A DNA stretch of 64,000 nucleotides from a virus. The notes below the pieces were generated by a model, which ran no database searches, was not told the DNA's origin, and saw only the letters and a program-made list of their open reading frames with translations. The DNA is taken from positions 64,001 through 128,000 of the IMG/VR virus record IMGVR_UViG_3300008259_004660. The stretch is one strand, 5' to 3'. This document shows, piece by piece, positions 8,566-53,404 of this stretch (position 1 is the first letter of the stretch; each line of letters starts with the position of its first letter). The translations under genes and the position numbers were made by a program.

Positions 8566-8856
8566 TTACTTACAATAAATTTATTTTTCCTAGCACCATT
8601 TTTTGTCTCGACTTTTTTTATTTTTTGTGCTATACTATTTGAGTCAGGGGGAGTCATTTTTTTTGACACAACCTTGGAATTTGGGTAGCCTTCGGTCCCC
8701 TACCCTTGGGTCACCCTCTCGGGATTCGCCCTGTCTCGGCTTTTCGGAATCTATCTCCTACTTCCACCGTGATACCATTATCGCAGAAATTAAAAAAAAT
8801 GGAAGCCCAACGAATTTTGTAACTCGTTGAGCTGTAACAACCGAACAAAAACCCCC

Positions 8857-9387
8857 TTAGTAGGGATTGTTGCTCTTGATCCATTCCTCAAGGTCAGCCT
8901 CGCTTGGAGGCGTTACGCCGAGCTTCATCACGTTATCCATTGAGGTATAGACCCTTGTGCCGTCCAATAGGCGCAACCCGATGCGATATGAGTTTGGGCG
9001 AAAGCTGTCCCTACCTTTCCAAACCACTTCACCCTTCGTTCCCTTGGCTACCTTGCGGCCCTTGACTACCTCAACCTCGCAGCCAACGTCGATAAACGCA
9101 CGGCGACCCATCAGCACGCTGTACGCCATCTTGGGGCCAACCTCACGGTTCCACCAAGCACGCGCCTTGGCTACCACTTCCTCCGTAGCGTCAGCGCGGT
9201 GATACTTGCTTGGGGCGTATGCGCGAGTGGTGCCGTCATCAATGGTGCGCACGCAACCCTGCTCTTCGTCCCAAACCGTCGCGTAGAAATCCGAGTCGTG
9301 ATAGCCGTTGCGCTCGCTGGTTCCAAGCACGCAACCCGTGAAATCACGGTCATAGTCACAAACCTTGGCTTCAATGATGGTACTCAT
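8857..9387 (-). CDS. hypothetical phage protein with KOW-like segment
   Basis: GYHDSDFYA and VEVVKGRKVAKGTKG; same promoter/GCACTATG cassette on the - strand. Confidence 0.75.
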   Translation of the reverse strand: MSTIIEAKVCDYDRDFTGCVLGTSERNGYHDSDFYATVWDEEQGCVRTIDDGTTRAYAPSKYHRADATEEVVAKARAWWNREVGPKMAYSVLMGRRAFIDVGCEVEVVKGRKVAKGTKGEVVWKGRDSFRPNSYRIGLRLLDGTRVYTSMDNVMKLGVTPPSEADLEEWIKSNNPY

Positions 9388-13844: not shown

Positions 13845-14036
13845 ATGAGCAACAAGCAATACTATACAGACAACAAAGGTAGATGGATTGGTTCTGTCAC
13901 CACCGAAAGCAATGGTCGCAAGACCATTTTGGATAACAAAGGTGCTCTACTCGGTCGAGTGCACGATGGTAAGACACTTGACAACAAAGGAGCATTTTTT
14001 GGACGCGGAGATCAATCACAAAGACTGTTCAAGTAA
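13845..14036 (+). CDS. small beta-repeat protein
   Basis: Three DNKG-x-x-x-G repeats in 63 aa. Confidence 0.6.
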   Translation: MSNKQYYTDNKGRWIGSVTTESNGRKTILDNKGALLGRVHDGKTLDNKGAFFGRGDQSQRLFK

Positions 14037-14039
14037 AAT

Positions 14040-14315
14040 TTGATGACAAACAACGACACCGTAAAAATTCTTATCATTGATAGCGCCAAGACGCCGATTC
14101 ATACAGAGAAGTATGAATTCAATGCCACTGACGCTGATAAAATCAAAGAGACAATTCTTTCATCTCTTAATCGACTTGGCAAAGCAACACATGCATTAAT
14201 CAAGTACAAGAACGAGTATTTTATTGCAGATCATACTGCACAAGGTAAGAATATGTCTGAAACATATTATCGCCACAAGATCAAGTATCATCCGTTTATG
14301 AAGTATTTAGCATGA
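14040..14315 (+). CDS. hypothetical protein
   Basis: 91-aa ORF. Confidence 0.6.
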   Translation: MMTNNDTVKILIIDSAKTPIHTEKYEFNATDADKIKETILSSLNRLGKATHALIKYKNEYFIADHTAQGKNMSETYYRHKIKYHPFMKYLA

Positions 14316-14542
14316 ACATCTATCATCTAGACATCAAAGATAAAGAAGATCATCAGTTTGACATTGATTATCATTTTTCTCATCCTACAAAAGGTGCATC
14401 AAATCTGTATGATGATTTCTACACAGCATATGACAAGGTAAGTGAAAGTGAGAATGATTGGAACATTGTTGACATTTTAAATGAACTTGGTAATATGGGA
14501 TGGACAAAAGTAGATGTTCTAACGGTAGATGTCTTTTATTAA
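14312..14542 (+). CDS. hypothetical protein
   Basis: ATGA overlap; 76 aa. Confidence 0.6.
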   Translation: MNIYHLDIKDKEDHQFDIDYHFSHPTKGASNLYDDFYTAYDKVSESENDWNIVDILNELGNMGWTKVDVLTVDVFY

Positions 14543-14600
14543 AAAATTAAAAAACCATCACTTTTTTCTCGACAAATAGAATATATATGCTAAAGTAGAA

Positions 14601-14617
14601 TTGTTCTTTAAATAACA
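14601..14617 (+). promoter_or_regulatory. boxA-like antitermination element
   Basis: TTGTTCTTTAAATAACA after TG-extended -10; resembles rrn boxA TGCTCTTTAACA. Confidence 0.55.
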
Positions 14618-14619
14618 TA

Positions 14620-14810
14620 GATAGGTAAGCATCCCTTTGATGAACCTACGGTGCGCATATCGCGCCGCCAGAATAATACAAGCTACAGACAGAGATGAAA
14701 GAAGCAAGTAGAGATAATGGTGGAGAGAAAGCGACAAACAAACATAGACAAAGATCATTGCTTGGTTAAATCGTAGGCTGTGGATGGATGGAGAATCAGT
14801 CGGTTTGAAA
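14620..14810 (+). ncRNA. candidate ncRNA leading the fMet-like tRNA
   Basis: Nested CATCC/GGATG and CCTACG/CGTAGG pairings around a purine-rich interior. Confidence 0.35.
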
Positions 14811-14821
14811 AATAATTTTGT

Positions 14822-14896
14822 GGCAGGGTAGAGTATGCGGTAACTCGTCACGCTCATAATGTGAAGCAACGGATTCAAACGCCGTCCCTGCTCCCA
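14822..14896 (+). tRNA. degenerate initiator-like tRNA (CAT)
   Basis: Acceptor GGCAGGG/CCCTGCT, D stem GAGT/ACTC, loop CTCATAA, T loop TTCAAAC, encoded CCA; A.G mismatch in T stem. Confidence 0.7.
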
Positions 14897-14938
14897 ATTT
14901 TGTATGTGTCCTGCGACGGGGCATACAAGAAAAAAAGA

Positions 14939-14971
14939 AAAGACCACGCTCCCGAAGGCGTGGTCTTTTTT
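14939..14971 (+). terminator. intrinsic terminator
   Basis: AAAGACCACGC/GCGTGGTCTTT stem plus T tract. Confidence 0.85.
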
Positions 14972-15010
14972 CTTGACTTTTTTAAAAAAAGTCTCCAAGA
15001 TGTTCGCACG

Positions 15011-15157
15011 ATGAAACCCTGCGTCAAGGTTGGAAACAAACTCATTCCACGCAAAAACGTGGAGTTTATTGATATTGAAGAGTGTCCTCTTACTGGCAGA
15101 GATATCATCACGTTTGAATACAAAGGCAATATTCACAAGTCTTATCTCTTTATCTAA
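15011..15157 (+). CDS. hypothetical small protein
   Basis: Leaderless cassette ATG 15011; MKPCVKVGNKLIPRKNV. Confidence 0.6.
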   Translation: MKPCVKVGNKLIPRKNVEFIDIEECPLTGRDIITFEYKGNIHKSYLFI

Positions 15158-15158
15158 A

Positions 15159-15497
15159 ATGAACATCGACTCTATTAGCATCAATGAGTATGATCTGCCC
15201 ATGATCATTCGCAACAATGTGCGAATTGATTGGGTCAATCTTGGTGAAGGAAATGATGGGGATTATGACCCAACTGACAAGTATGATGAAAACCTTCTTC
15301 GTTTTGATGTTTATCGCTTCGACGGCAAGGAGTGGGAAGCTATTGAAGATGGTAGCTATTGCACTCAAGTAGCTGCTGGTACAGACCAAAAGATTTTGAT
15401 TGAACATCTTCGTCACTTTATGGACACCATCTATGACGATGTTTCCACACACGGCAAAGCAAAGCGACTCTGCGAACAGCTTTCTTGGATTGAATAA
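15159..15497 (+). CDS. hypothetical phage protein
   Basis: GEGNDGDYDP..LLRFDVY..SYCT motif. Confidence 0.7.
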   Translation: MNIDSISINEYDLPMIIRNNVRIDWVNLGEGNDGDYDPTDKYDENLLRFDVYRFDGKEWEAIEDGSYCTQVAAGTDQKILIEHLRHFMDTIYDDVSTHGKAKRLCEQLSWIE

Positions 15498-15537
15498 TTC
15501 TTGACTTTTTATAAAATTAATGTAGGATGGTCGCACG

Positions 15538-16257
15538 ATGAACGAACTACTCCTCGCCAAACTCAAGAAGCTCCTCAATCTCAGCAAGTCCGCCAACATT
15601 CACGAGGCGGAGCTTGCTCTCCAAAAGGCTACGGCAATGGCGGCAGAAGCTGGTATCGACCTTGCGATGGTAACTGCCAAGGCTGACAGCGAGGCTGAGA
15701 AGCTGGAAATGGTGCAGGAGACTGCCTTCAATGGCAAGCGTCTGCCTAGCCTTCAGAAGTATGCCTCTTGGCTCCTAAACAAGCATTTCAATGTCCACGT
15801 GATTTATTCTGGCGGGCGCTACTTTGGTCGCAGCGTCAACATTCTCGGAGACAAGCGTGATGTCGAGTTTGCCAAGTTCGTCAACGAGTTTGTGCAGGAT
15901 GATATGCAGCGCCGTTGGGAGTATTACAAGAAGAGCAACGGTTTGAGCGTGCGCATGAAAGACACTTTCATGTACAACCTTTGGCGTGGGTTGGACAGCA
16001 AGCTGACCGAAGCCAAGGCGGCGGCGGAAACTGCCAAGTTCAACGCTATGCCGCAGGAGCAGGTGGCGGACACCAAAGCTCGTTATGGCATCGTGATTTC
16101 GGACAAGAAGGCGGCGGTGCAGCAGTTCGTCAGCAAGACTTATCCCCGCTTGTCAAGCACAAGAATTTCGGTTCGCAACTTTTCTAACTCGACAGTTGCG
16201 ACGGATGGGTATTCAGTTGGGCGTTCAATGAACATCAGCCGCCCAATCGCATGCTAA
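15538..16257 (+). CDS. DUF2786-domain protein
   Basis: KLKKLLNLSKSANIHEAELALQKA N-terminus. Confidence 0.75.
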   Translation: MNELLLAKLKKLLNLSKSANIHEAELALQKATAMAAEAGIDLAMVTAKADSEAEKLEMVQETAFNGKRLPSLQKYASWLLNKHFNVHVIYSGGRYFGRSVNILGDKRDVEFAKFVNEFVQDDMQRRWEYYKKSNGLSVRMKDTFMYNLWRGLDSKLTEAKAAAETAKFNAMPQEQVADTKARYGIVISDKKAAVQQFVSKTYPRLSSTRISVRNFSNSTVATDGYSVGRSMNISRPIAC

Positions 16258-16736
16258 CCTATCGCCAAAATATCACCCACTACCCACAGTTGGGAGCATA
16301 CAACTGTGGGCCTGTGGCCCTTTCCTGCCTCTTTGACACCTCGTTGGAGCAACTGGAGAAAATGGTGGAATGCGACAAAGACAAGGGCACGTACACCACC
16401 AAGGTGGTTGACGCAATGAAGCGTGAGAAAATTGAGTGCAGCCATATCTCCCTTAATGGTGACGGTGAAAACCATCTGTGGTGGTTGGAGCTTAACTCCT
16501 ACCGTTGGCCCATCTACCTTGGTTGTCACTTCATCGTGCAGGGCAAGCGTGGTCGCCCCAGCAACCACCATCACGCTGTGCTGCTCGCGAATGGTATGAT
16601 CTATGATGGCAACAGCCATCGTGAGGAGCCAATCGGTGCTGTCGCAGAGAAGTTCAACAAGAAGTTTGTTGTGAAAGATGCAATCATCTTCCATCATGAA
16701 TTGAAGGGTTGGAAACAAAATTTGGAAGCCGCATAA
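16251..16736 (+). CDS. papain-fold (C39-like) cysteine peptidase
   Basis: Q..YNCGPVAL, HHAVLL, IYD give a Cys-His-Asp triad. Confidence 0.65.
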   Translation: MLTYRQNITHYPQLGAYNCGPVALSCLFDTSLEQLEKMVECDKDKGTYTTKVVDAMKREKIECSHISLNGDGENHLWWLELNSYRWPIYLGCHFIVQGKRGRPSNHHHAVLLANGMIYDGNSHREEPIGAVAEKFNKKFVVKDAIIFHHELKGWKQNLEAA

Positions 16737-16813
16737 CTTTTTTCACGAAAAATTAAATTTTTTGTTGACTTTGTTTGGAAATAAAATATTTATCGGTGAT
16801 CCCTTTTTCTCCG

Positions 16814-16936
16814 ATGAAGCTCATAATTTCCAGTGGTAAAATTTTAAAGGTCAATCACCCAAATCTTCCTATACCAGCCCCCACGCAATTACCCGCGCCA
16901 AGATTGGTCACAGAAAAAAAAGTGAAAAAGCCTTGA
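16814..16936 (+). CDS. 40-aa Pro/Lys-rich peptide behind a TATTTAT motif
   Basis: MKLIISSGKILKVNHPNLPIPAPTQLPAPRLVTEKKVKKP*; stop lies in the next -35 box. Confidence 0.35.
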   Translation: MKLIISSGKILKVNHPNLPIPAPTQLPAPRLVTEKKVKKP

Positions 16937-16968
16937 CATTTTTTATTTTTTAATCATCCTAATTAGCA

Positions 16969-17142
16969 ATGAACACTTACAAAGTACCTGTTACTTGGAG
17001 AGAGTATGGTCATGTCTTTGTCAAGGCAGACAGTATTGAAGAAGCTATTCAAAAAGCCCACGATGAAGATTTGCCCCACGACAACAGCGAATATCTTGAA
17101 GGTAGTTTTGAAATTGATTACGAGGGCGTTCGCGCAATCTAA
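16969..17142 (+). CDS. hypothetical small protein (57 aa, not in track)
   Basis: MNTYKVPVTWREYGHVFVKADSIEEAIQKA. Confidence 0.65.
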   Translation: MNTYKVPVTWREYGHVFVKADSIEEAIQKAHDEDLPHDNSEYLEGSFEIDYEGVRAI

Positions 17143-17148
17143 CCATAC

Positions 17149-17225
17149 GCGACCGTAGCTCAGTTGGATAGAGCAACAGATTTCTAATCTGTGGGTCGTG
17201 GGTTCGAATCCCACCGGTCGCGCCA
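17149..17225 (+). tRNA. tRNA-Arg(TCT)
   Basis: GCGACCG/CGGTCGC acceptor, loop TTTCTAA, GTTCGAATC, CCA. Confidence 0.97.
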
Positions 17226-17278
17226 TTCTAAAAATAATTCTTGACTTTTTATAAAAATCTGTCAACCTAATCAGCACT

Positions 17279-17746
17279 ATGGGACTAGATATGTATCTCA
17301 GCGCCGAGAAGTATATCTCGGGTTATGACCACGACAAGAATGAGAACTTCGGCAAAGTTCTTGATCTTTTTAATCTAAACGAGGATGATGTTCACAATTC
17401 TATCACGGTCAACATCACCGTTGGTTATTGGCGCAAGGCCAATGCCATTCATAATTGGTTCGTTCAAAATATACAGGATGGTAGGGATGATTGCCAACGC
17501 AGCTATGTTCGCCGCGAAAAACTACTTGAGTTGAAGAGTGAGTGTGAAGCTGCTCTTGCTGCCTACAACAATGGTGACAAGGATACGGCGGAAAACCTAA
17601 TTCCTCCTACTAGTGGATTTTTCTTTGGAAGCACCGAAGTTGATGATTGGTACAAGGCCGATTTGGTTGAAACCATCAAAATCATTAACACGTGTTTGAG
17701 TGATAAGTTAAATGGATTTGGATTTTACTACCAATCCAGTTGGTAA
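17279..17746 (+). CDS. hypothetical phage protein
   Basis: MGLDMYL, YWRKANAIHNWF, GFFFGST, YQSSW. Confidence 0.8.
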   Translation: MGLDMYLSAEKYISGYDHDKNENFGKVLDLFNLNEDDVHNSITVNITVGYWRKANAIHNWFVQNIQDGRDDCQRSYVRREKLLELKSECEAALAAYNNGDKDTAENLIPPTSGFFFGSTEVDDWYKADLVETIKIINTCLSDKLNGFGFYYQSSW

Positions 17747-17785
17747 TACTTGACTTTTCTTAAAAAGTATCCACACTTCTACTCA

Positions 17786-18103
17786 ATGAACGCTACGAAC
17801 ATCGAACCTCAAACCTGCCACTACATCACTGCCAACACGTTGGCAAAGATGAGCAAGAATGCTGCCGAGGCTATTGATGCCTTGTTCAACTCTGATTTGG
17901 ATGTTAGCTTTGGCGATGCTAATCGCACTCTGATCGACATCCCTCATTTCCTACGCCTATTGGAGGATGGTATGGAGCAGCAGGGTATTTTTTGGGTTCC
18001 TCTTGGCCCCGATGATGACGAGACGCACCACGCTGGTTACGAGGAAATCAAGAACGCGCTTGACGAATACACTAACGAAGTTTACATTGATCTCGAAAAC
18101 TGA
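17786..18103 (+). CDS. hypothetical protein (IDLEN family)
   Basis: SFGDANRTLI..EVYIDLEN. Confidence 0.7.
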   Translation: MNATNIEPQTCHYITANTLAKMSKNAAEAIDALFNSDLDVSFGDANRTLIDIPHFLRLLEDGMEQQGIFWVPLGPDDDETHHAGYEEIKNALDEYTNEVYIDLEN

Positions 18104-18115
18104 AATAACACCACG

Positions 18116-18307
18116 ATGAAACTGACGCAATACATCCGCCAACTCCAAGAAATCGCCAAGAAGCAGCCTGACGCAGAAGTGATTTATGCGGCAGACGAAG
18201 AAGGTAATAGTTATTCTCCTGTTTTTTACGAGCCGTCTCTTGGTTATTTTGATGGAGACAGTTTTGACACCACGGCGAAGCCTGTCAACGCCATCTGTAT
18301 CAACTAA
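18116..18307 (+). CDS. hypothetical phage protein
   Basis: EVIYAADEEGNSYSPV, NAICIN. Confidence 0.7.
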   Translation: MKLTQYIRQLQEIAKKQPDAEVIYAADEEGNSYSPVFYEPSLGYFDGDSFDTTAKPVNAICIN

Positions 18308-18316
18308 TTTTAGCTC

Positions 18317-18392
18317 GGGCTGGTAGCTCAACGGTCAGAGCAGAGGACTCATAATCCTTTGGTTAGGGGTTCGAATCCCTTCCGGCCCACCA
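18317..18392 (+). tRNA. tRNA with CAT anticodon (Ile2-like or elongator Met)
   Basis: GGGCTGG/CCGGCCC acceptor with C4-G69, loop CTCATAA, CCA. Confidence 0.93.
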
Positions 18393-18402
18393 CTTTTATC
18401 AT

Positions 18403-18588
18403 ATGAAAACAATAATCAACAAAATAAAGGAGAACTCCACACAACTTATTCAAGGACTGTTTCTTGGTCTTTTTCTAACAATGGGTATTTTCAACATCGT
18501 TGATGGCATTTTCTTTTCAAAGATTATGTGGCAGACGAACTGCGGAGTTAATCAGATCATCATCGGTGCAATCATGTCCAAGATTTAG
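18403..18588 (+). CDS. small two-TM membrane protein
   Basis: Two hydrophobic segments in 61 aa. Confidence 0.55.
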   Translation: MKTIINKIKENSTQLIQGLFLGLFLTMGIFNIVDGIFFSKIMWQTNCGVNQIIIGAIMSKI

Positions 18589-18638
18589 TTCTTGACTTTT
18601 TATAAAGAACAAGTACTCTGTGTCTTGTTCTTTTCAAT

Positions 18639-18713
18639 GGTCTTGTAGCTCAATGGTAGAGCCGTTGACTTTTAATCAATTGGTTGTGGGTTCGAATCCC
18701 ACCGGGACCACCA
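18639..18713 (+). tRNA. tRNA-Lys(TTT)
   Basis: GGTCTTG/CGGGACC, GTTGA-CTTTTAA-TCAAT, CCA. Confidence 0.97.
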
Positions 18714-18718
18714 ATTTC

Positions 18719-18793
18719 GCGATGAACCCAAAGACAAGGAGGGGGTGGGCTCGGTTCCCACAATAGTGCGTGAAAGCTCGCACCATCGCACAA
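18719..18793 (+). ncRNA. tRNA-like cloverleaf RNA with non-canonical loops
   Basis: GCGATG/CATCGC acceptor, GTGGG/CCCAC and GTGCG/CGCAC arms, ACAA end. Confidence 0.55.
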
Positions 18794-18846
18794 TTTTTAT
18801 TGACAATTTAGGTAGGTAAGTCATAGTTATCTTTGTTCTTTTTAAT

Positions 18847-18921
18847 GCCGAGTTAGCACAATGGCGGTGCAACTGTTTTGTAAACAGTAGGTTGTCGGTT
18901 CGAATCCGACACTCGGCTCCA
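18847..18921 (+). tRNA. tRNA-Thr(TGT)
   Basis: GCCGAGT/ACTCGGC, ACTGT-TTTGTAA-ACAGT, CCA. Confidence 0.96.
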
Positions 18922-18930
18922 TTTTTCAGA

Positions 18931-19019
18931 CAGAGGTGCAAGTAAGTCGTCTACATCCTCTGGAGTACTGCATAAGGTGCTTGACAGCAGTAAATAACAG
19001 GGCTCATGATCCTGCCTCT
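18931..19019 (+). ncRNA. three-hairpin structured spacer RNA
   Basis: CAGAGG/CCTCTG, TACTGC/GCAGTA, CAGG/CCTG. Confidence 0.4.
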
Positions 19020-19038
19020 TTATCTGAACATTTTTTAC

Positions 19039-19113
19039 GCCGCTATCGTCTAACGGTTAGGACGCCGGATTTTCATTCCGATAATCGGGGTTCGATTCCC
19101 CGTAGCGGTACCA
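19039..19113 (+). tRNA. tRNA-Glu(TTC)
   Basis: GCCGCTA/TAGCGGT, loop TTTTCAT, GTTCGATTC, CCA. Confidence 0.95.
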
Positions 19114-19118
19114 ATTTT

Positions 19119-19313
19119 ATGAACGATTCTCATTTACTTCCTCCTCAAGCAGACATTGACGCTGCACTTCAGATTGAAAAGAGTGTGAAGCCAAGTGAGC
19201 GTGAGCGTTATTTGGAGTACATGAACAATGTTCCTATGTCTGACCGCAAGACCGCAAGAGAATTGCGTGATGGATGTATCTTGAGCCAACTTTTCAATCG
19301 TTTTCGCAGTTAA
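19119..19313 (+). CDS. hypothetical protein
   Basis: ATG 19119, MNDSHLLPPQ; 64 aa. Confidence 0.55.
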   Translation: MNDSHLLPPQADIDAALQIEKSVKPSERERYLEYMNNVPMSDRKTARELRDGCILSQLFNRFRS

Positions 19314-19357
19314 AGTTCTTGACTTTTTTTAAAATCTGTTCATTCTATCTCTTGTCA

Positions 19358-19539
19358 ATGAGGTTTGGAAGCCGTCAACTGCCTCATCATTAAATTCAGG
19401 TATTGCTGAATGGCGCGGCCCAATTTTTGTTCTTTGTGGCCACAAAAACCGGTGTCAGGGAGCCCACAGGGTTATCCCTTATTGTGGGGAACGCTAGTCC
19501 CACGGCTCCACGGGGAGTCTCCGGAAATCTAGCGCGCCA
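19358..19539 (+). ncRNA. candidate structured ncRNA ending in GCCA
   Basis: Own promoter at 19317; TGGCGCG/CGCGCCA, GGAGC/GCTCC, CCCACA/TGTGGG. Confidence 0.55.
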
Positions 19540-19589
19540 ATTTTCTCTTGACTTTTTTTAAAATCTGTTCATTCTCTTCTTTGTTCTTT

Positions 19590-19814
19590 GGTAGTATCAA
19601 GACAGATAAAAGTCGCCTTGCGCGATGGAATCAAAGTTGAACAGTGATGTGTTCAATGAAAGGGTTTGGATTTATCACCAAATACCTGAGATTTAACCGA
19701 CCAGCGCCACCATTAAAAGCAAAGCCACACGGCATTGATTCGTCGGAAAGAGCAGCTTGAAAGTGTGAAACTCTTGCGGAACAGCAGAATTCCGCTATCT
19801 GTCTTGATATTATC
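19590..19814 (+). ncRNA. candidate ~225-nt multibranch ncRNA
   Basis: 14-bp perfect (19 with G-U) terminal helix; several internal hairpins; own promoter and boxA. Confidence 0.7.
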
Positions 19815-19853
19815 ATTGACTTTCTTTAATTTTTGTTCATTCTCTTCTTTGTT

Positions 19854-19981
19854 CTAGGGTGCATTGCCAATAGGAAGTACTCACGGAACTACAGTAAGCA
19901 ACAGTTAGTGCGGAACTCGTGACGAAGATTCTGATCAAATCCTAGTTAGCGTGATTATGGATCGGCTCCATCGCTGTTGCT
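19854..19981 (+). ncRNA. candidate pseudoknotted ncRNA
   Basis: CTAGG/CCTAG, TCACG/CGTGA, and crossing AGCAACAG/CTGTTGCT. Confidence 0.55.
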
Positions 19982-20005
19982 GAAATCTTTTTTGTTCTTT
20001 TGATT

Positions 20006-20167
20006 TTCTCTCATTATTCCGCAACATTGTAAAAGGTGAAGCGCGTGTATCGAAAAATGTAATGGGAGAATATTTTTTGGCAGGTCGCTCTGCCGGAACT
20101 CTAAAATCTATGCCAAGCGCTAGTGACCCTTGCCGGTATCACACAGGTTGACCTCTGGATTTTAGAG
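20006..20167 (+). ncRNA. two tandem long-stem, large-loop hairpin RNAs
   Basis: 11-bp and 12-bp stems, each ending in GAGAATATTTT. Confidence 0.45.
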
Positions 20168-20178
20168 AATATTTTTAC

Positions 20179-20260
20179 GCAGTGTTGGTGTAGCTGTGCA
20201 ATAAACATAGTTGGCAATCCTGCCAAAAGTCGGGCAGCGCGTCCTGCTCACACTGCTCCA
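20179..20260 (+). ncRNA. anticodon-less tRNA mimic with encoded CCA
   Basis: GCAGTGT/ACACTGC-T-CCA acceptor plus three arms. Confidence 0.7.
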
Positions 20261-20305
20261 ATTTATCTTGACTTTTTTTAATTCTTCAACGACACTATCA
20301 GCAAG

Positions 20306-20470
20306 ATGAAACTTGAATGCTGCGATGTTGAGTTAGATTATGAGAGTGCTGGACGGCGTGACACCGAGACGATTGGTGGATACAGCGTCGAGTATTTTAT
20401 CTGTTCTGAATGCAAGCAGCGTTATGAACTTATCGGAAATAGTTTGTGTATGACTGAAGAAGAGCCTTGA
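20306..20470 (+). CDS. 54-aa Cys-rich (Zn-ribbon-like) protein, not in track
   Basis: MKLECCD...FICSECKQRY; promoter 38 nt upstream. Confidence 0.6.
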   Translation: MKLECCDVELDYESAGRRDTETIGGYSVEYFICSECKQRYELIGNSLCMTEEEP

Positions 20471-20503
20471 CTTTCTTTAAATTTAGTTCAAACTGACTTC
20501 ACG

Positions 20504-20704
20504 ATGAAGCCCGAATATCGCATTCAGATTTACGACAAGCAGTACCTTGAATGGAATACTTTTCCTGATGGATGTTTTGATAGTAAAGAAAAGGCTATTG
20601 CTGAAGCGGTTAAGGTTCTTAAGGGGTGGGGTAAACGCAATCACAAGATTCGTTTGATTGAAGTGTGTGAGAAAGTTATTCGGCTTCCAAGCATCAAGAA
20701 ATAA
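20504..20704 (+). CDS. hypothetical protein
   Basis: Promoter cassette; 66 aa. Confidence 0.65.
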   Translation: MKPEYRIQIYDKQYLEWNTFPDGCFDSKEKAIAEAVKVLKGWGKRNHKIRLIEVCEKVIRLPSIKK

Positions 20705-20709
20705 ATCAT

Positions 20710-20916
20710 ATGGAACACCCTCTATATTATGCCATTGATTATGATCTTAATGTGATCAAGTTGGGTTATTTTGACAACGATCATCTTGCTTGGCTTTATA
20801 CTGAAAAAAAGGAGATTGAGTTTATGAAAATTCTTAATCACGCTGAACTGATTACTCTTTACAACAACATTGATGCTGCCACATCAGATTCATTGGCTGG
20901 ACAACCTTTTGCTTGA
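20710..20916 (+). CDS. hypothetical protein
   Basis: 68 aa; stop in the next -35 box. Confidence 0.6.
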   Translation: MEHPLYYAIDYDLNVIKLGYFDNDHLAWLYTEKKEIEFMKILNHAELITLYNNIDAATSDSLAGQPFA

Positions 20917-20950
20917 CTTTTTTTATTTAGGTCTCCATACTACTCCCATA

Positions 20951-21244
20951 ATGAAAATCAAACTGCAAGAAGCTCTTGACCTTATTCAAGCTGCTGATGT
21001 TGTTCGTGTAACTGATATGGATGGATTTATTGAGCCTATCATCTCATTCAGTGATATTGAAGGCAAGCCAGACAATGAGTTTATGTATATGAGTTGGGAT
21101 GATGAACATGATGAGTTTGGTGCCAGATTTCTTGAAGAAGGCAATGAAGAAGTAGAGCGTGATGGCAACAAGATTGCTATCACCGACAGCGAAGGCAGCG
21201 AGTTTGAGTTTAATCTGTTTCGCCTAGTGCCGATTCTAGCTTGA
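20951..21244 (+). CDS. hypothetical acidic protein
   Basis: ATG 20951 at cassette distance. Confidence 0.65.
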   Translation: MKIKLQEALDLIQAADVVRVTDMDGFIEPIISFSDIEGKPDNEFMYMSWDDEHDEFGARFLEEGNEEVERDGNKIAITDSEGSEFEFNLFRLVPILA

Positions 21245-21328
21245 CTTTTAATACATAGGCGCGTAACCTGACTGCCTATCAACGTGGAGCCAACCAAGCA
21301 CAACTCCACCAATCATTTTAAAAATCAA

Positions 21329-21691
21329 ATGCCTCGTCCAAAGAAGATCAAAGTTGAAGTTCCCAAAGGACCGCCCAAGAAACGTGGGCGCAAACCCAAG
21401 CCAAAGGTTTTGAGCATCAAAACTGAAGAAGGTTACACAGAAATTCCTTTGGATGGTTTGAAATTTCCTTGGACTGGTAATCCAGATTATTTCAAGAGCG
21501 AATCAACTCCATTAAGCATCAGCGAGATGACCAAGGAATCTTGTGCTTATCCCAATCGCTACCTTGATGATCAATGCTTTGGATGTTCCATCTATGATTC
21601 TTGTAGATGTTCTTTGAAGTACAACAAAGAAGATATGAAAAAGCCAGTTGAAAAGGTGAAGATTAAGAAGTTAAGTTCATTCGATTCATAA
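21329..21691 (+). CDS. basic AT-hook-like, Cys-cluster protein
   Basis: KKRGRKPK; CAYP...CFGC...CRC. Confidence 0.65.
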   Translation: MPRPKKIKVEVPKGPPKKRGRKPKPKVLSIKTEEGYTEIPLDGLKFPWTGNPDYFKSESTPLSISEMTKESCAYPNRYLDDQCFGCSIYDSCRCSLKYNKEDMKKPVEKVKIKKLSSFDS

Positions 21692-28102: not shown

Positions 28103-28351
28103 ATGATGAACACCACCCTCACCGCCGATCAAGTCGCCCTCAATGCCTATCTCGCCGCCAAGAACGCGGAGTTTGAGGCTAAGTGCATTGCCGAGGGTGC
28201 AACGTTTTGGTGCGTCAGCGCCGTCACCGCCGCTGACCTTGCGGAGTATGGGGTATACACCGTTGAGCAATACAAGGTGTGGCGTGAGGAGCAGGATGCT
28301 CTGATTGACGCCAAGGAAGCTCGCAAAGCGAGCTATGGGTGGGGCGAGTAA
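28103..28351 (+). CDS. hypothetical protein
   Basis: Last early-cassette gene; AEYGVYTVEQY. Confidence 0.7.
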   Translation: MMNTTLTADQVALNAYLAAKNAEFEAKCIAEGATFWCVSAVTAADLAEYGVYTVEQYKVWREEQDALIDAKEARKASYGWGE

Positions 28352-28480
28352 GGTAACCCCCATACGGTAGGGGTGGGGGAGTGGGGGTCAAACGCGGCTT
28401 TACCCCCCACCCACCCCCCCGTTAGGTGGGGGTTTAGGTGTCTTCTAGGTGGGGTAAACCCCCCACCCCCCTACCGGGGC
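28352..28480. repeat. G/C-tract imperfect palindrome at the early/late junction
   Basis: Alternating GGGG and CCCC runs; GGTAGGGGTGGGGG mirrored by CCCCCACCCCC(C)TACC. Confidence 0.7.
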
Positions 28481-28854
28481 ATATACGTTTTATTGTCGTG
28501 GTCAATTTTTCATATCCATTTTTCATATATACGTTTTATAGTTTTTTCGTATATTACTTTTTCGCCATATATCCTCTTTTTTCAAATTTTAAAATTTTTG
28601 AATTTTTTGTTGATGGATTTTTGTATATACCATAATTTGTATTATGTGCATATAATTGAACAATTGTTGTATATGTGTTTAATTGTTTGTTCAATTGTTG
28701 TTCTTTGATTTGGTTTTTATTGAATATGTCAAATAAGGTTTTACCTTTTTAAACTTTTTCAATCAGTATGTAAAAATTCAGAATTTGCACAGGCTAAAAA
28801 TTTAGTTAATGAATTTTTGTATATACTATAGAGGATTTATATTTATTATGATAT

Positions 28855-30882
28855 ATGCCTAGTATAGTAACCAGTAGTCTGCAATTATATCTTATAGCTT
28901 CAAATACTGGAAGCTATCCTACTTCTGGTTCTGTATGGACTGATTTAAGTCCTAATGGGTATAGTACAGATATTATTGGTGGCCCATCTTTTAATACTAC
29001 ACATTTTAGTTTTGATGGTAGCGTTGAATATGTTGATACCAATCAAAGTTTAAGTTCTGAAACATTCTCTGTTGGCGCGTGGTTTAGATCATCTGCGGGT
29101 GGTGTAAAGATGATATTGTCCAAAGAGACCACAGGTGGTTGGCCTTGGAATTATCGCATATGGTTGAATGGTGGAACGATTATTGGTGATATTGCTCTTT
29201 CTGGTGGTCAAAGTCAAACTATAAGCAGTACACTTACCAATTACAACAATGGGTCTTGGTATTATGTGATGTTTACCCGAGATGATTCCAATTTATATTT
29301 GTATGTAAATGGCGTCCAAATAAAGACACAAGCGGATACAATGGTGGGTAGCATAACAAATGCTCAAGAATTATGGATTGGTCGCAGCGCATTTACAGCC
29401 GGTGGTGTTAATCCAAATGGAAGTTATCAATATGTTGGTGATATTGCTGAAGTATTCATATATGATTCTATTTTGACATCGGGTGAAGTGTTGCAGAATT
29501 TTGACGCGACTAAACACACATATTATCCGCCAACTCCAACGCCCACACCAACTCCCACGGAAACGCCCACGCCATCACCCACAGCAACCGCCACGCCGCT
29601 TCCAACCGACACACCAACTCCAACACCAACGCCCACGCCATCACCCACAGCAACCGCCACGCCGCTTCCAACCGACACACCAACTCCAACACCAACGTTG
29701 ACAGAAACACCAACGCCCACGCCATCGGCAACTCCGACACCATTACCAACCGACACACCCACTCCCACTCCCACAAATACGGCAACTCCTACTCCTACAC
29801 CAACTCTTACCGCAACACCAACACCTACTCCTACGCCATACATACAACCAACTCCGGGGTGTCCACAAGTAACAAACAGTGGTAGCATATATTTCAATGG
29901 AACTTCATATGCTGAATTTCAATCCAGTAGTATATGGGCAGTAGGAAGAGGAGATTTTACCTTTGAGTGGTATATGAAAATCACAGGATCAGTTGCATCA
30001 CATCCTACTCAAAGTATATTTTACATGGGAGGACCGGGAGATACACTAGGACATCTTAGTGCAAGAATATATGATGGTGACACAATAAGATTTTCAATGA
30101 ATAATAGATATGTGGCAGAGGGGCATCCATTAAACATATATGATAAATGGACACATATGGCAATTTCTCATCGAAATGACAAATTGTATATTTTTCAAGA
30201 TGGTGTTCTGATTAGTGATTATACTTTGAATATAAATGCAAATGTTACCTCATCATTTCATCCGTTTAGTATTGGCGGCGCTTCAAATTTTGCATCAGTA
30301 TTGTATTATCAGGGATTGTTGACAAATTTTCATTACGTAAAAGGAGTTGGATTGTATGAAGGCGCTGGATACAGTATGGGTGACAAGGTTTTTCAAAAAC
30401 CAATGACGCCAATTCAGCCAGTAGAAGGAACAAAATTATTGTTGCTTGCTGATTATAGTTGCGTTCATCTATATAATTCTGCACCAGATACGCATATCAG
30501 TTCATCAAATCATGGCACGGCATATAACACAGCGCATCCTAATTTGAAAAAGTTCAACGTTCCAATCGGAGAATATTTCTTGGAGGGCGTGCCTAAAATG
30601 AATGATCAGAATTATTATTTGTTTGGGCTTGGAAAAGAAAAAGTGTATCCGCTTGAAGGTGGATTTGAATATGGTGAAAATATCGTGATGAACGCCACGG
30701 AAAAGAAATATAGTTTTGATTATTTTGAAATTCACTCTCCTATTACTGTTGTGAGTAGTGATATGTTCTATATTACAGCTTATGGATTTACCGCTTCGTA
30801 TGATCCAAGAACAGAAGTAAAAATGACTATAGATACTGATGTAAGTGGTAGCAACTCACCAATAATTGCCAGATATAGATAA
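28855..30882 (+). CDS. Probable virion protein: two LamG/ConA-like domains joined by a Pro-Thr linker
   Basis: [16 protein letters not shown]; [15 protein letters not shown]; about 100-aa (PT)n. Confidence 0.8.
29562..29697 (+). repeat. 66-bp tandem duplication in the PT linker
   Basis: Units at 29562 and 29628 are identical. Confidence 0.85.
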
Positions 30883-39897: not shown

Positions 39898-41157
39898 ATG
39901 AAAAAAAATAATGATCTAATATTCGTGCAGATAGCATCATATCGTGATCCAGAATTGGTTCCTACCATCAAGGACATGATTGCCAAAGCGAAACATCCAG
40001 AAAAATTAACATTTGGTATTTGTTGGCAAAAAGATGAAACGGAAAATCTTGATGAATTCATCGACAATCCAAATTTCAGAATTGAAACATATCATTATTC
40101 AGAAAGCCAAGGACTGGGTTGGGCTAGAAACATAACAAACAAGTTGTATCGTGGGGAAAAATACACCTTGCAGATTGATAGTCACCATCGTTTTGTTCAA
40201 GATTGGGATGCAATGATTCTTGAAGATTATGATCAGGCTTTGTCGGTTGCAAAAAAACCAATCATAAGCACATATTGTACACCATTTGACACTGCGTTGC
40301 CGATTGAAAAAGCAAGCCCAGTACCATGCTTGATGTCACAATATGAATTTAGCAATGACAAACTTTTGATGAGCATGCCTCATTACATTGGAGATTATGA
40401 GAAGCGAACCAAAATTATTCGCGCTCGCACGTTGAGTGGACATTTCTTTTTTGTTGCTGGAAAATTTATTGAAGAAGTACCATATGATCCAGACATTTAT
40501 TTTGGTGGATACACTGAAGAAACAACTATGAGTGTTCGTGCATATACACATGGATATGATTTCTTCAGCCCATACAGAATGATTATGTGGCATGAATATA
40601 CTCGCAAATATCGTCCAAAGCATTGGGATGATCACGGCAAGGAAAGTGCCACAAAGAAGACAAGTGGTGAGAGAGATATTTATGCAAGAAAGAAAACTCG
40701 CCAATTGTTCGGACAAGAAGAACATGGAATTGATATGGGAATTTATGGATTAGGAAAGGTTCGCTCTTTGCATGATTATGAAGTATACGGAGGTTTTAAT
40801 TTCAAAGCATGTAAAATACAAGATTATACTCTATTGGTAAAAGAACCACCGAATCCACCTGATTGGGAGGCGCAATTCAAAAAAGAAAGACTCAAAATGA
40901 ATGTTGCATGGGATGTAGGACATTTCATGGAAGAAGACACTGGAGATTTTGAATTCATCACATTTGGCGTCGTTGACAAATATGACACAAATTTGTTCAG
41001 AGTTGATTTCAAACCATCAACTCATCCTGAAATATTCACATACAAGAAAAGTTCAATTGATGTAGAGATAATTTCAGATAACAAGCCAGACAGAGTAATA
41101 ATGTATTCTTTTAGCAAATCAAAACAGTGGGGTAAGCGTTACGAGAAAAAACTATGA
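39898..41157 (+). CDS. GT60-type polypeptide/Skp1 alpha-GlcNAc transferase (GlcNAc family)
   Basis: IFVQIASYRDPEL, LQIDSHHRF, GHFFF, YDP..YFGG..EE, RAYTHGYD. Confidence 0.8.
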   Translation: MKKNNDLIFVQIASYRDPELVPTIKDMIAKAKHPEKLTFGICWQKDETENLDEFIDNPNFRIETYHYSESQGLGWARNITNKLYRGEKYTLQIDSHHRFVQDWDAMILEDYDQALSVAKKPIISTYCTPFDTALPIEKASPVPCLMSQYEFSNDKLLMSMPHYIGDYEKRTKIIRARTLSGHFFFVAGKFIEEVPYDPDIYFGGYTEETTMSVRAYTHGYDFFSPYRMIMWHEYTRKYRPKHWDDHGKESATKKTSGERDIYARKKTRQLFGQEEHGIDMGIYGLGKVRSLHDYEVYGGFNFKACKIQDYTLLVKEPPNPPDWEAQFKKERLKMNVAWDVGHFMEEDTGDFEFITFGVVDKYDTNLFRVDFKPSTHPEIFTYKKSSIDVEIISDNKPDRVIMYSFSKSKQWGKRYEKKL

Positions 41158-53023: not shown

Positions 53024-53404
53024 ATGGAAACTTCCGAGTATGAATTGTATAAGGGAAAAAGCTTTGCTTCACTGTGCAAAGATATTGTCAGCAATTCTGA
53101 AGAAAAGAAGCAGCAATTAGATGTTTTGATTACAGATCTTCGTGAAATGATTAAAACAGTAAACGATGCTGTTACAATTGTACCACTATTAAAGGAATAT
53201 TTTGACGCTGGTATAAGAAACGACGAACAATTAATTAAACTGGCTGCAATTGTTCAAAGACTCATGGCAGATAGAGCAGGTGCAGAATCAGATTCCAACA
53301 GTGGTATATTGACGGACGACGAAAAGAAACAGTTGATGAGTGTTATAGAAGAGGCGGCAAAGCCTGTTCAAAAAATTAAACAACCAACCGACGAAAGATC
53401 ATAA
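53024..53404 (+). CDS. hypothetical protein
   Basis: NDEQLIKLAAIVQR; precedes baseplate genes. Confidence 0.7.
   Translation: METSEYELYKGKSFASLCKDIVSNSEEKKQQLDVLITDLREMIKTVNDAVTIVPLLKEYFDAGIRNDEQLIKLAAIVQRLMADRAGAESDSNSGILTDDEKKQLMSVIEEAAKPVQKIKQPTDERS

What the first reader, a model, noticed from the sequence alone, without database searches (positions are those of the whole stretch)
18600..20265. Island of stable non-coding RNAs interleaved with tRNAs (candidate RNA-decoy system)
Seen: among and after tRNA-Lys/Thr/Glu lie about seven structured non-coding segments. Three start from near-identical ~40-bp promoters (19317, 19546, 19814: TTGACT..AAATCTGTTCATTCT). They share the TTGTTCTTT leader and T-rich flanks of the real tRNAs, and two or three end in CCA-like acceptor ends. 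Established: T4 species 1/2 RNAs and T5 tRNA-region RNAs are stable phage RNAs of unknown function, and anticodon nucleases (PrrC, PARIS AriB) target tRNA. Inference: this is an early-expressed RNA arsenal of decoys or sponges for tRNA-targeting defence, RNase P/CCA enzymes or regulators.
Basis: partly seen in the sequence, partly recalled or inferred. Interest (0 to 1): 0.88.

Follow-up and report, generated by a model that had tools for sequence, protein, structure and literature searches.

The report
Phage array of tRNA-like RNA genes
An uncultured large freshwater phage carries, next to its real tRNA genes, a fast-changing array of small structured RNA genes that match no known family; several are tRNA-shaped but cannot decode, base pairing in five families is kept by compensating mutations, and their function is unknown.

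Summary
Window 18590-20270 contains tRNA-Lys, tRNA-Thr and tRNA-Glu, one 64-aa ORF and nine ORF-free segments, which I call A to I.

- **Supported structures.** A, B, F, H and I have homologues in related uncultured phages, with compensatory base changes in their helices.
  - I: 10 variants, 97.7% of cells paired.
  - A: 8 variants.
  - F: 6 variants.
- **tRNA likeness.** A, F and I are cloverleaf-like. I keeps a 7-bp acceptor stem and an encoded NCCA in all ten variants aligned, but has a 4-6 nt loop where the anticodon loop should be. None matches Rfam, tRNA included.
- **Weaker segments.**
  - D recurs at 99% identity in a different genomic context.
  - G has weak support.
  - E (227 nt, 20-bp closing stem, z -5.3) has no diverged homologue.
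  - C is a recombination scar.
- **Cassette behaviour.** Segments are present, absent, duplicated or reordered between close relatives. They are better conserved than the flanking genes.
- **Promoters.** The three near-identical promoters belong to a 27-copy early promoter family, so they are not specific to the RNAs.

The closest analogue is T4 species I/II RNA (rnaC, rnaD), but there is no sequence homology. The decoy or anti-defence function is untested, and I obtained no expression data.

First readers of this scan noted this same stretch elsewhere in this genome. The scan holds no look-alike on other DNA.

The parts
18591..18638 (+). Early promoter (TTGACT at 18592) plus the TTGTTCTTT leader of the tRNA-Lys unit
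   Evidence: Member of the 27-copy promoter family; leader motif at 18625.
18639..18713 (+). tRNA-Lys(UUU) with encoded CCA
   Evidence: ARAGORN; Rfam 74.2 bits.
18719..18793 (+). Module A: 4-helix cloverleaf-like RNA with tRNA-like connector lengths (2, 1 and 4 nt), no D/T-loop consensus, and 3' tail ACAA
   Evidence: 8 distinct homologues, 93.4% of cells paired, 7 pairs with changes on both sides (3/500 shuffles), score 0.299 vs 0.152. No Rfam hit.
18800..18846 (+). Promoter (TTGACA at 18800) plus the TTGTTCTTT leader of the tRNA-Thr unit
18847..18921 (+). tRNA-Thr(UGU), discriminator U plus CCA
   Evidence: It is one of the top-scoring hits of the I model outside family I (24 bits).
18926..19030 (+). 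Module B: about 105-nt RNA with a closing stem and three internal hairpins
   Evidence: 3 homologues, 96.3% paired, 8 pairs with changes on both sides (0/500 shuffles). 92% identical in L011, where the helicase gene is only 65% identical.
19039..19113 (+). tRNA-Glu(UUC) with encoded CCA
19119..19313 (+). 64-aa ORF of no known family, inside the island
   Evidence: 19 homologues at 70-94% identity.
19318..19347 (+). Promoter P1
   Evidence: The 29 bases 19318-19346 are identical to P2 19547-19575 (28-nt pattern, plus the preceding C).
19354..19422 (+). Segment C: probable recombination scar. It has an ATG 39 nt after the -35 hexamer (an 11-codon mini-ORF) and a 3' remnant of an I-type module's T-like arm
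   Evidence: Fold z-score -0.19. Its 3' TGGCGCGGCCCA aligns to the I-type copy upstream of D in L074, with a 14-nt deletion.
19436..19539 (+). Module D: two-domain structured RNA ending GCGCGCCA
   Evidence: 99% identical in L072 and L074, in a different order (F, I-type copy, D, A), where orf64 is only 75% identical. Fold z-score -1.56. There is too little variation to test covariation.
19547..19576 (+). Promoter P2, followed by the TTGTTCTTT leader at 19581
19589..19815 (+). Module E: 227-nt multibranch RNA closed by a 20-bp helix
   Evidence: MFE -73.3 kcal/mol, z-score -5.32, 0 of 200 shuffles fold as well. Found only as identical copies in three other assemblies. No diverged homologue. 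No Rfam hit.
19815..19845 (+). Promoter P3
   Evidence: 1 mismatch to the family consensus.
19854..19896 (+). F0: 5' extension of F, present in L025, L030, L079 and L074 but absent in L009
19897..19981 (+). Module F: 85-nt RNA with an 8-bp closing stem, a 4-bp arm with a 7-nt CUGAUCA loop, and a 5-bp hairpin
   Evidence: 6 homologues, 95.8% paired vs 77.7% shuffled, 8 pairs with changes on both sides, score 0.540 vs 0.207 (0/500). ARAGORN calls it tRNA-Ile(GAU) only at an 80% threshold. No Rfam tRNA hit.
20006..20070 (+). Module G: hairpin-closed RNA with a 12-bp stem
   Evidence: z-score -1.87. 93% identical homologues in L079 and L081; 3 of the 5 substitutions lie in the stem and all keep pairing.
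20076..20172 (+). Module H: 5' hairpin, then a 12-bp stem around a core whose central ~33 nt are invariant
   Evidence: 3 homologues, 97% paired, 5 pairs with changes on both sides (4/500 shuffles).
20179..20260 (+). Module I: tRNA-shaped RNA with a 7-bp acceptor stem, a D-like arm, a 5-bp arm closing a 4-6 nt loop (no anticodon), a 6-bp T-like arm without the T-loop consensus, discriminator U and encoded CCA
   Evidence: 10 distinct homologues, 97.7% paired vs 83.8% shuffled, 9 pairs and 29 cells with changes on both sides, score 0.498 vs 0.213 (0/500). No Rfam tRNA hit.

Best explanation
The island is a cassette array of small structured RNA genes, embedded among tRNA genes in the early region of a large (at least 185 kb) uncultured freshwater phage.

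**Shown**
- Modules A, B, F, H and I are discrete units whose + strand helices are maintained by compensatory substitutions.
- They are as conserved as the phage tRNAs, and more conserved than neighbouring protein genes.
- They are gained, lost, duplicated and reordered between relatives.
- A, F and I have a cloverleaf-like layout. I keeps an acceptor stem plus NCCA but has no anticodon loop, and apart from two further I-like elements the only other sequences its covariance model finds are the phages' own tRNA genes, chiefly tRNA-Thr.

**Inferred**
- The units are transcribed by host RNA polymerase from sigma-70-type early promoters, either as their own units or together with tRNAs.
- They are cut out by the host tRNA-maturation enzymes: RNase P at the 5' side after the U-rich UGUUCUUU leader, and RNase E plus 3' exonucleases at the (CCA)AUUUU trailers.
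- They accumulate as stable RNAs because their ends are paired.
- Cassettes move by recombination between the repeated promoter, leader and trailer sequences, possibly helped by the HNH homing endonucleases found in relatives' islands.

**Speculative**
- The tRNA-shaped members act in trans by occupying host proteins that recognise tRNA shape, while the others bind other partners.

C is a scar, not a gene. E is a candidate supported only by folding energy.
For: **Covariation**
- I.
- A.
- F.
- B.
- H.
- In every case, controls with the 3' partner slid by 1-3 columns collapse to 26-59% of cells paired (26-54% for I, F, B and H).

**Strand.** Helices contain many G-U pairs, which would be A-C mismatches on the other strand.

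**Conservation above background.** Between the window and L011 the helicase gene is 65% identical at nucleotide level. A is 96%, B 92%, H 85% and tRNA-Lys 95% identical.

**Cassette behaviour**
- L025, which is 84-100% identical over shared parts, has only F and I between orf64 and orf54.
- L079 has G directly followed by I, without H, and carries two I copies.
- L074 has the order F, I-type copy, D, A.
- Module order differs in L009, L010, L011 and L030.

**Not an assembly artefact.** The island is 100% identical in three independent assemblies.

**tRNA likeness**
- The 5' flank UUUUUAC is shared by I and tRNA-Glu, and CCA+AUUU trailers are shared with the tRNAs.
- Hits of the I model outside family I are tRNA-Thr (five times), tRNA-Glu, two further I-like elements and one noise hit at E 0.53.
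- Relaxed ARAGORN modes draw A, F and I as cloverleaves.

**Not coding.** Indels of 1-2 nt occur within families, and no ORF pattern is conserved.

**Mobility.** HNH endonuclease genes sit inside relatives' islands.

**Precedent.** The T4 tRNA cluster is transcribed as one precursor of eight tRNAs plus species I and II RNAs (PMC2330249). T4 rnaC has a T-arm and an end-pairing stem, and rnaD ends in GCACCA.
Against:
- Each family has only 3-10 sequences from a few lineages, and the A and I alignments were fitted to the models, which biases pair counts upward.
- E and D have no informative variation.
- A natural variant (L064) deletes F0 and half of F, so at least F is dispensable.
- A's 3' tail is not conserved, so A is not a CCA-ending RNA.
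- T-like loops lack the T-loop consensus that RNase P uses to bind the tRNA elbow, so efficient RNase P processing is not assured.
- The genome (78% complete) shows no CCA-adding enzyme and no RtcB, and only a sub-threshold RNA-ligase match. Nothing links the island to a phage tRNA-repair pathway.
Confidence: 0.6

Rival explanations
1. Anti-defence RNA arsenal. The tRNA-shaped, non-decoding RNAs (I, A, F) act as decoys or competitive inhibitors for tRNA-targeting immune nucleases such as PrrC, PARIS AriB, retron-associated PtuAB or Septu. The other modules sponge other host factors.
For: - The RNAs have tRNA shape without decoding capacity.
- Rapid gain and loss resembles accessory, arms-race genes.
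- They sit next to tRNA-Lys(UUU) and tRNA-Glu(UUC); from my own knowledge these are classic anticodon-nuclease targets.
- Phage tRNAs are shown to defeat retron and other defences (PMC11555353).
- Septu cleaves tRNA-Tyr, and the homing endonuclease SegB amplifies anti-defence loci (PMC13096335).
Against: - No defence system, host or target is known for this phage.
- Nucleases that read the anticodon loop would not be expected to bind an RNA lacking that loop.
- My literature searches found no phage tRNA-mimic decoy.
Confidence: 0.15
2. Decaying tRNA pseudogenes and recombination scars with no function of their own, kept only because they lie between useful tRNA genes.
For: - C is such a scar.
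- L025 has a 6-bp minihelix plus UCCA that copies the tRNA-Thr 3' end.
- L064 carries a deletion in F.
- Modules are present or absent between close relatives.
Against: - Compensatory changes keep 93-100% of helix cells paired across 6-10 variants.
- Loops and junctions are invariant while stems vary.
- Modules are far better conserved than flanking genes.
- D and I occur at 99-100% identity in genomes whose neighbouring ORF is 75-86% identical.
Confidence: 0.1
3. Cis-acting elements of the tRNA transcription units: processing spacers, RNase III or RNase E entry sites, attenuators, or antitermination and insulator structures that tune tRNA output.
For: - The boxA-like UGUUCUUU motif lies 5' of the units.
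- E has a 20-bp stem of the length RNase III cuts.
- Modules always abut tRNAs or each other.
Against: - P2 with E, P3 with F-G-H-I, and P1 with C-D contain no tRNA at all, so there is nothing to regulate in cis.
- Modules keep their sequence when moved to other neighbours.
- The scan found no excess of terminator-like sites.
Confidence: 0.1
4. Base-pairing small regulatory RNAs that target host or phage mRNAs through their conserved loops.
For: Loop sequences are invariant across diverged relatives, for example AAUAG and GUGAAAGCU in A and about 33 invariant nt in the core of H. An SD-like AAGGAGG lies in A.
Against: The host is unknown and no target search was possible. The compact multi-helix folds with paired ends are unlike typical Hfq-dependent sRNAs (my own knowledge).
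Confidence: 0.07
5. Small protein-coding or DNA-level elements: mini-ORFs on leaderless transcripts, or, for E, a miniature inverted-repeat transposable element.
For: - C begins with an ATG at the leaderless-start distance (39 nt from the -35, against 37-38 for neighbouring ORFs).
- A starts with a conserved ATGAAC, and an SD-like motif precedes it in L011 and L074.
- E has 19-20 nt terminal inverted repeats and is absent from all relatives.
Against: - Frame-breaking 1-2 nt indels occur within A, I and F.
- Peptide sequences differ completely between variants while the nucleotides stay conserved.
- Both mismatches in E's inverted repeat are G-U compatible on the + strand.
- E has no second copy in the genome.
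Confidence: 0.04

Closest known systems
Phage T4 species I and II stable RNAs (rnaC, rnaD) in the tRNA gene cluster
   Same: - Small stable RNAs of unknown function that lie directly after tRNA genes and are co-transcribed with them (PMC2330249; annotation).
- They have tRNA-like ends: rnaC has a GGTTCGAATCC T-arm and paired termini, and rnaD ends in GCACCA.
- They are absent from Rfam.
- A homing endonuclease (segB) sits in the same cluster.
   Different: - No sequence similarity to any module.
- This window holds nine segments, and I counted at least 12 recurring module types across the clade by eye.
- Many modules have their own promoter, and content differs between close relatives.
- Members such as I lack the T-loop consensus.
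Canonical tRNA (Rfam RF00005)
   Same: - I has a 7-bp acceptor stem, a discriminator base, encoded CCA, four helices in cloverleaf order and the same flanks as the phage tRNAs.
- A has tRNA-like connector lengths and a 7-nt loop on a 5-bp stem.
   Different: - No RF00005 hit, even when about 100 nt is searched alone at E up to 10.
- I has a 4-6 nt loop in place of the anticodon loop.
- There is no T-loop consensus.
- The T-like arm is 6 bp with a 6-nt loop.
Other tRNA-like non-coding RNAs: bacterial Y-RNA-like YrlA, the tmRNA tRNA-like domain, mammalian mascRNA
   Same: Non-decoding RNAs that borrow tRNA shape and are, or may be, processed by tRNA enzymes (my own knowledge).
   Different: No Rfam match to YrlA, tmRNA or mascRNA in the modules. 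No Ro-binding stem or tag reading frame is present.
Promoter-early stem-loop (PeSL) cassettes that shuffle genes in T4-type phages (from my own knowledge; no paper read here)
   Same: Repeated early promoters flank small cassettes whose presence and order vary between related phages. Here, three promoter copies bracket C-D and E, where L025 has a single promoter.
   Different: Here the cargo is non-coding RNA. The recombination mechanism is inferred from sequence comparison only.
Phage tRNAs used against tRNA-targeting defence (PMC11555353; PMC13096335)
   Same: The same genomic neighbourhood, and a plausible selective pressure on tRNA-region content.
   Different: Those are functional, decoding tRNAs that replace cleaved host tRNAs. 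The modules here cannot decode.

Membership tests
tRNA (RF00005) | Scores above the Rfam gathering threshold (29 bits) with the tRNA covariance model | tested here: not met
   No RF00005 hit at E up to 10 for I, A, or E and F. The six real tRNAs score 42-75 bits.
tRNA (RF00005) | 7-bp acceptor stem, discriminator base and 3' CCA | tested here: met
   Met for I: the acceptor is 100% paired in 10 variants, 4 of 7 pairs covary, and NCCA is kept in every variant inspected. Not met for A: 6-bp stem and a variable tail.
tRNA (RF00005) | 5-bp anticodon stem with a 7-nt loop containing U33 and an anticodon | tested here: not met
   I has loops of 4-6 nt (AUCC, AUUCCC, AAACC, UUCC). A has a 7-nt CUCGGUU loop in window-type copies but a 5-nt loop in L009-type copies.
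tRNA (RF00005) | T-arm with the GTTCRANYC loop and a D-loop with GG, forming the elbow | tested here: not met
   The T-like loop of I is CGCGUC, CGUGUU or CGCGGC on a 6-bp stem. That of A is UGAAAGCU (8 nt).
T4 species I/II-type stable RNAs | Located within or directly after a phage tRNA cluster, on the same strand | tested here: met
   for the window; for T4.
T4 species I/II-type stable RNAs | Sequence or profile homology to rnaC or rnaD | tested here: not met
   blastn with short words finds only T-loop matches to real tRNAs and an 11-nt chance match.
T4 species I/II-type stable RNAs | Accumulates as a discrete stable RNA processed from a tRNA precursor | not testable with these tools
6S RNA, Y RNA/YrlA, tmRNA, RNase P RNA, group I intron (candidates for E) | Match to the Rfam covariance model | tested here: not met
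   Only noise hits below 18 bits in 19585-19995 and in 14000-21500.
rrn/lambda-type boxA antitermination site | UGCUCUUUAACAA-like motif near the start of an untranslated transcript, bound by NusB-NusE | tested here: inconclusive
   UGUUCUUU matches 7 of the first 8 boxA bases (consensus quoted from my own knowledge). It is enriched 5' of RNA units. It also occurs between modules that have no promoter. Binding cannot be tested and the host is unknown.

The most novel reading that the evidence does not exclude
A clade of large freshwater phages maintains a hypervariable, horizontally exchanged set of at least a dozen RNA families. Some are derived from tRNA genes that lost decoding but kept the acceptor stem and CCA. 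They serve as RNA-based counter-defence or host-takeover factors that mimic tRNA to trap tRNA-recognising host proteins. This would give a function to the class of phage tRNA-cluster RNAs that has been unexplained since T4 species I/II were described.
Probability: 0.15. Interest if true: 0.9.

Novelty: new variant of a known kind. Interest (0 to 1): 0.68.

Why it matters
Stable RNAs of unknown function in phage tRNA clusters have been known since T4 species I and II, but T4 has only two. Here a whole clade offers many RNA families with natural variants, covariation-supported folds and clear presence/absence differences between near-identical phages. That makes the question approachable by comparison and by simple genetics.

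The tRNA-shaped RNA that keeps acceptor stem and CCA but has no anticodon loop (I) is a concrete candidate for a phage-encoded tRNA mimic. If these RNAs target host tRNA-binding proteins or immune nucleases, they would be a new class of RNA-based phage countermeasure.

None of these families matches Rfam release 15.

Tried and rejected
- **Rfam.** Searched at gathering and at permissive thresholds on the window, on small slices and on eight relatives' loci. Only tRNAs were found.
- **Cultured phages.** blastn of the island hit only tRNA genes. tblastn with two window proteins found nothing.
- **Exact-pattern scans of viral contigs.**
  - The promoter pattern gave nothing.
  - An internal hairpin of E gave nothing.
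  - A's conserved core gave only the three relatives already known.
- **Protein-based locus search.** The search with the 239-aa ORF found no relatives. The helicase search did work.
- **Orphan segments.** BLAST of C, D, E and G against three relatives' whole records found only promoter matches. D and G homologues turned up later through orf64 homologues. E stayed an orphan.
- **Rejected: joint fold of C and D as one RNA**. D occurs without C in L072 and L074, and C's 3' end is an I-type remnant.
Its P1 and P2 involve F0, which L009 lacks. Its 'crossing' 8-bp helix is the conserved, covarying closing stem of F.
- **Uninformative checks.**
  - GC content does not distinguish the island.
  - The terminator scan showed no excess.
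  - ARAGORN's mitochondrial mode gave 23 calls in 1.7 kb, so it is not evidence.
- **Genome searches.** CCA-adding enzyme and RtcB were negative, and RNA ligase scored below cut-off.
Full report
**Context.** The window is bases 64001-128000 of a single 184,824-bp IMG/VR virus contig with 38.6% GC, estimated 78% complete. No cultured phage resembles it, either in island DNA or in two window proteins. From 8.6 to 27.3 kb the + strand carries 27 copies of one sigma-70-like promoter, CTTGACTTTYTTTAA (0.83 expected by chance). Most sit just upstream of small ORFs. This looks like a host-polymerase early region.

**Anatomy of the island.**
- The order is: promoter, tRNA-Lys, A, promoter, tRNA-Thr, B, tRNA-Glu, a 64-aa ORF, promoter P1, C, D, promoter P2, E, promoter P3, F0-F, G, H, I, then the promoter of a 54-aa ORF.
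- P1 and P2 share 29 identical bases (the 28-nt pattern plus the preceding C). P3 is a variant.
- TTGTTCTTT lies a few bases 5' of tRNA-Lys, tRNA-Thr, D, E and G. Genome-wide, 6 of its 9 + strand copies are at RNA units.
- Every unit is followed by a T-run. tRNA-Lys, tRNA-Glu, C, D and I are followed by CCA+ATTT.
- The stretch 19314-20305 is among the longest ORF-free + strand gaps in the genome (992 nt), just behind the one holding a tmRNA gene.

**Relatives.**
- A helicase gene 7 kb upstream retrieved three IMG/VR contigs and 35 metagenome contigs, by their record names mostly lake samples, at 63-97% amino-acid identity.
- The exact 54-aa ORF occurs in 163 blocks of the assembly collection. 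Homologues of the 64-aa ORF gave further contexts.
- Three independent assemblies carry the island at 100% identity, so it is not an assembly artefact.

**Comparative evidence that the segments are RNA genes.**
- **Family I.** Ten distinct sequences; 97.7% of helix cells pair against 83.8% after shuffling. Nine pairs and 29 cells changed on both sides (29 cells vs 7.9 in shuffles, 0/500). The covariation score is 0.498 against 0.213. The acceptor, the anticodon-like arm and the T-like arm are 100% paired. Sliding the 3' partners by 1-3 columns drops pairing to 28-46%.
- **Family A.** Eight sequences, 93.4% paired, seven pairs changed on both sides (3/500), score 0.299 against 0.152. Its third helix is replaced in some relatives by an equally long hairpin shifted by one base.
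- **Family F.** Six sequences, 95.8% against 77.7% paired, eight pairs changed on both sides. There are three different versions of the 8-bp closing stem, all fully paired.
- **Families B and H.** Three sequences each, 96-97% paired, with eight and five double changes.
- **G.** Differs from its homologues at five positions. Three lie in the stem and all keep pairing.
- **Caveats.** The numbers of sequences and lineages are small. The A and I alignments were fitted to covariance models, which leans towards the structure. The unfitted MAFFT alignments gave the same picture.
- **Strand and coding.** Many helix positions are G-U, so the structure belongs to the + strand transcript. Indels of one or two bases within families argue against coding.

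**Conservation.**
- Between the window and L011 the helicase gene is 65% identical at nucleotide level. A is 96%, B 92%, H 85% and tRNA-Lys 95% identical.
- D is 99% identical in L072 and L074, where the adjacent ORF is 75% identical.
- I is 100% identical in L079, where that ORF is 86% identical.
- This indicates either strong purifying selection or recent exchange of cassettes, probably both.

**Cassette dynamics.**
- L025 is 84-100% identical over shared genes, but it has one promoter, F0-F and I between the two small ORFs. It lacks C, D, E, G and H, and it holds other modules after tRNA-Lys and tRNA-Glu.
- L079 has G directly followed by I, two I copies, and further modules.
- L074 has the order F, I-type copy, D, A.
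- L009, L010, L011, L030 and L041 each show a different order and extra modules.
- By eye, at least a dozen module types recur across the clade. None matches Rfam.
- HNH homing endonuclease genes lie on the opposite strand inside the islands of L010 and L041. This echoes segB in the T4 tRNA cluster.
- The window's three promoter copies bracket C-D and E where L025 has one promoter. That suggests insertion by recombination at the repeated promoter.

**What the modules look like.**
- **I.** Acceptor stem (7 bp), two unpaired bases, a 4-bp D-like arm with a CAAUAAA-type loop, a 5-bp arm closing only 4-6 nt, a 6-bp T-like arm stacked directly on the acceptor, discriminator U and CCA. In L011 and L041 the D-like arm carries an insertion of about 62 nt.
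- **I and the phage tRNAs.** The I covariance model's other hits across 223 kb are the phages' own tRNA-Thr genes (five, 16-24 bits), one tRNA-Glu, two further unannotated I-like elements and one noise hit at E 0.53. I and tRNA-Glu share the 5' flank UUUUUAC. I therefore read I as a tRNA-derived RNA that kept the acceptor end and lost decoding.
- **A.** It has four helices with connector lengths of 2, 1 and 4 nt, as in tRNA, but its tail varies (ACAA, ACCA, ACUA and others).
- **F.** ARAGORN calls it tRNA-Ile only at an 80% threshold.
- **Rfam.** The tRNA model does not detect any of A, F or I, even on slices of about 100-400 nt.

**Weak members.**
- **C.** It folds no better than shuffled sequence. 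Its 3' CCA-like end aligns with the T-like arm of an I-type copy that precedes D in L074, minus 14 nt. It starts with an ATG at the leaderless-start distance. I treat it as a scar.
- **E.** It has the strongest single-sequence signal: -73.3 kcal/mol, z -5.32, and a 20-bp closing helix whose two imperfections are G-U on the + strand. However, it occurs only in identical copies. No diverged homologue was found in relatives' whole records, in related loci or by an exact-pattern scan.

**Comparison with the known.**
- T4 rnaC and rnaD follow tRNA-Arg in the T4 cluster. They are part of one precursor together with eight tRNAs (PMC2330249).
- rnaC ends in a canonical T-arm and an end-pairing stem, and rnaD ends in GCACCA. 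Neither is in Rfam, and neither resembles any module in sequence.
- The island is therefore the same kind of thing in position and design, but not homologous. It is much richer and more variable.
- A 2023 survey predicted thousands of structured RNAs in IMG/VR, including tRNA-like ones (PMC10690425). I could not check whether these families are among them.

**Function.**
- Nothing here tests it. The decoy idea fits the tRNA shape, the accessory-like turnover and recent work showing that tRNA regions of phages are shaped by tRNA-targeting defences (PMC11555353, PMC13096335). However, no target, host or defence system is known for this phage.
- The genome shows no CCA-adding enzyme or RtcB.
- I give about 0.15 to an anti-defence role.
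- I give about 0.6 to the broader statement that these are processed, stable, trans-acting RNAs excised by the tRNA-maturation machinery.

Noticed in passing
Genome 8603-8996 and 754-2276 (outside the window): The phage also encodes a tmRNA (tag peptide AKRNLAKVSFLSVRKNADVEMLAAA by ARAGORN) and three tRNA-Leu genes.
   Followed up: no
Window 14558-14970: A promoter-like site plus TTGTTCTTT (14601) is followed by about 210 nt of ORF-free leader, then tRNA-Met (14822-14896) and two hairpins. This may be another RNA unit. In relative L072 an I-like tRNA mimic (991-1067) sits right before the homologous tRNA-Met.
   Followed up: partly
Window 28330-28860: Near the downstream end of the promoter-rich block (last promoter copy at 27.3 kb) lie G-run and C-run repeats (GGGGTGGGGG, CCCCCCACCC) at 28330-28480. 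An extremely AT-rich 380 nt follows.
   Followed up: no
L079 2540-2807: A tRNA-Met(CAU)-like gene appears split in its anticodon loop by an insert of about 200 nt, possibly an intron. Rfam gives no group I intron hit.
   Followed up: partly
L030 19306-19380; L074 1767-1878: L030 has a tRNA-Glu(UUC)-like gene with a non-canonical T-loop (GGCAGCA) that neither ARAGORN nor Rfam calls. L074 has a 112-nt tRNA-like element with two T-arm-like hairpins, ending ACGCCACCA.
   Followed up: no
L010 19261-19707 (-); L041 8918-9415 (-): HNH homing endonuclease genes (phrog_2255, E 1.7e-16 and 2.1e-29) are inserted on the opposite strand inside relatives' tRNA/RNA islands.
   Followed up: yes
L064 5600-5630: A natural variant otherwise identical to the window carries a deletion of about 90 nt that removes F0 and the 5' half of F.
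   Followed up: yes
Window 18740-18750; L011 18130-18172; L074 2826-2868: A Shine-Dalgarno-like AAGGAGG lies in A's D-like loop. It occurs twice in a hairpin just 5' of A in two relatives, in a phage whose early mRNAs appear leaderless.
   Followed up: no
Window 47465-49324; 39898-41157: The phage encodes a full-length Hsp70/DnaK homologue (861 bits) and a GlcNAc-type glycosyltransferase.
   Followed up: no
Genome 53196-53729 (outside the window): A 389-aa ORF gives a sub-threshold match to the RNA_ligase family (PF09414, 22.7 bits against a cut-off of 27).
   Followed up: no
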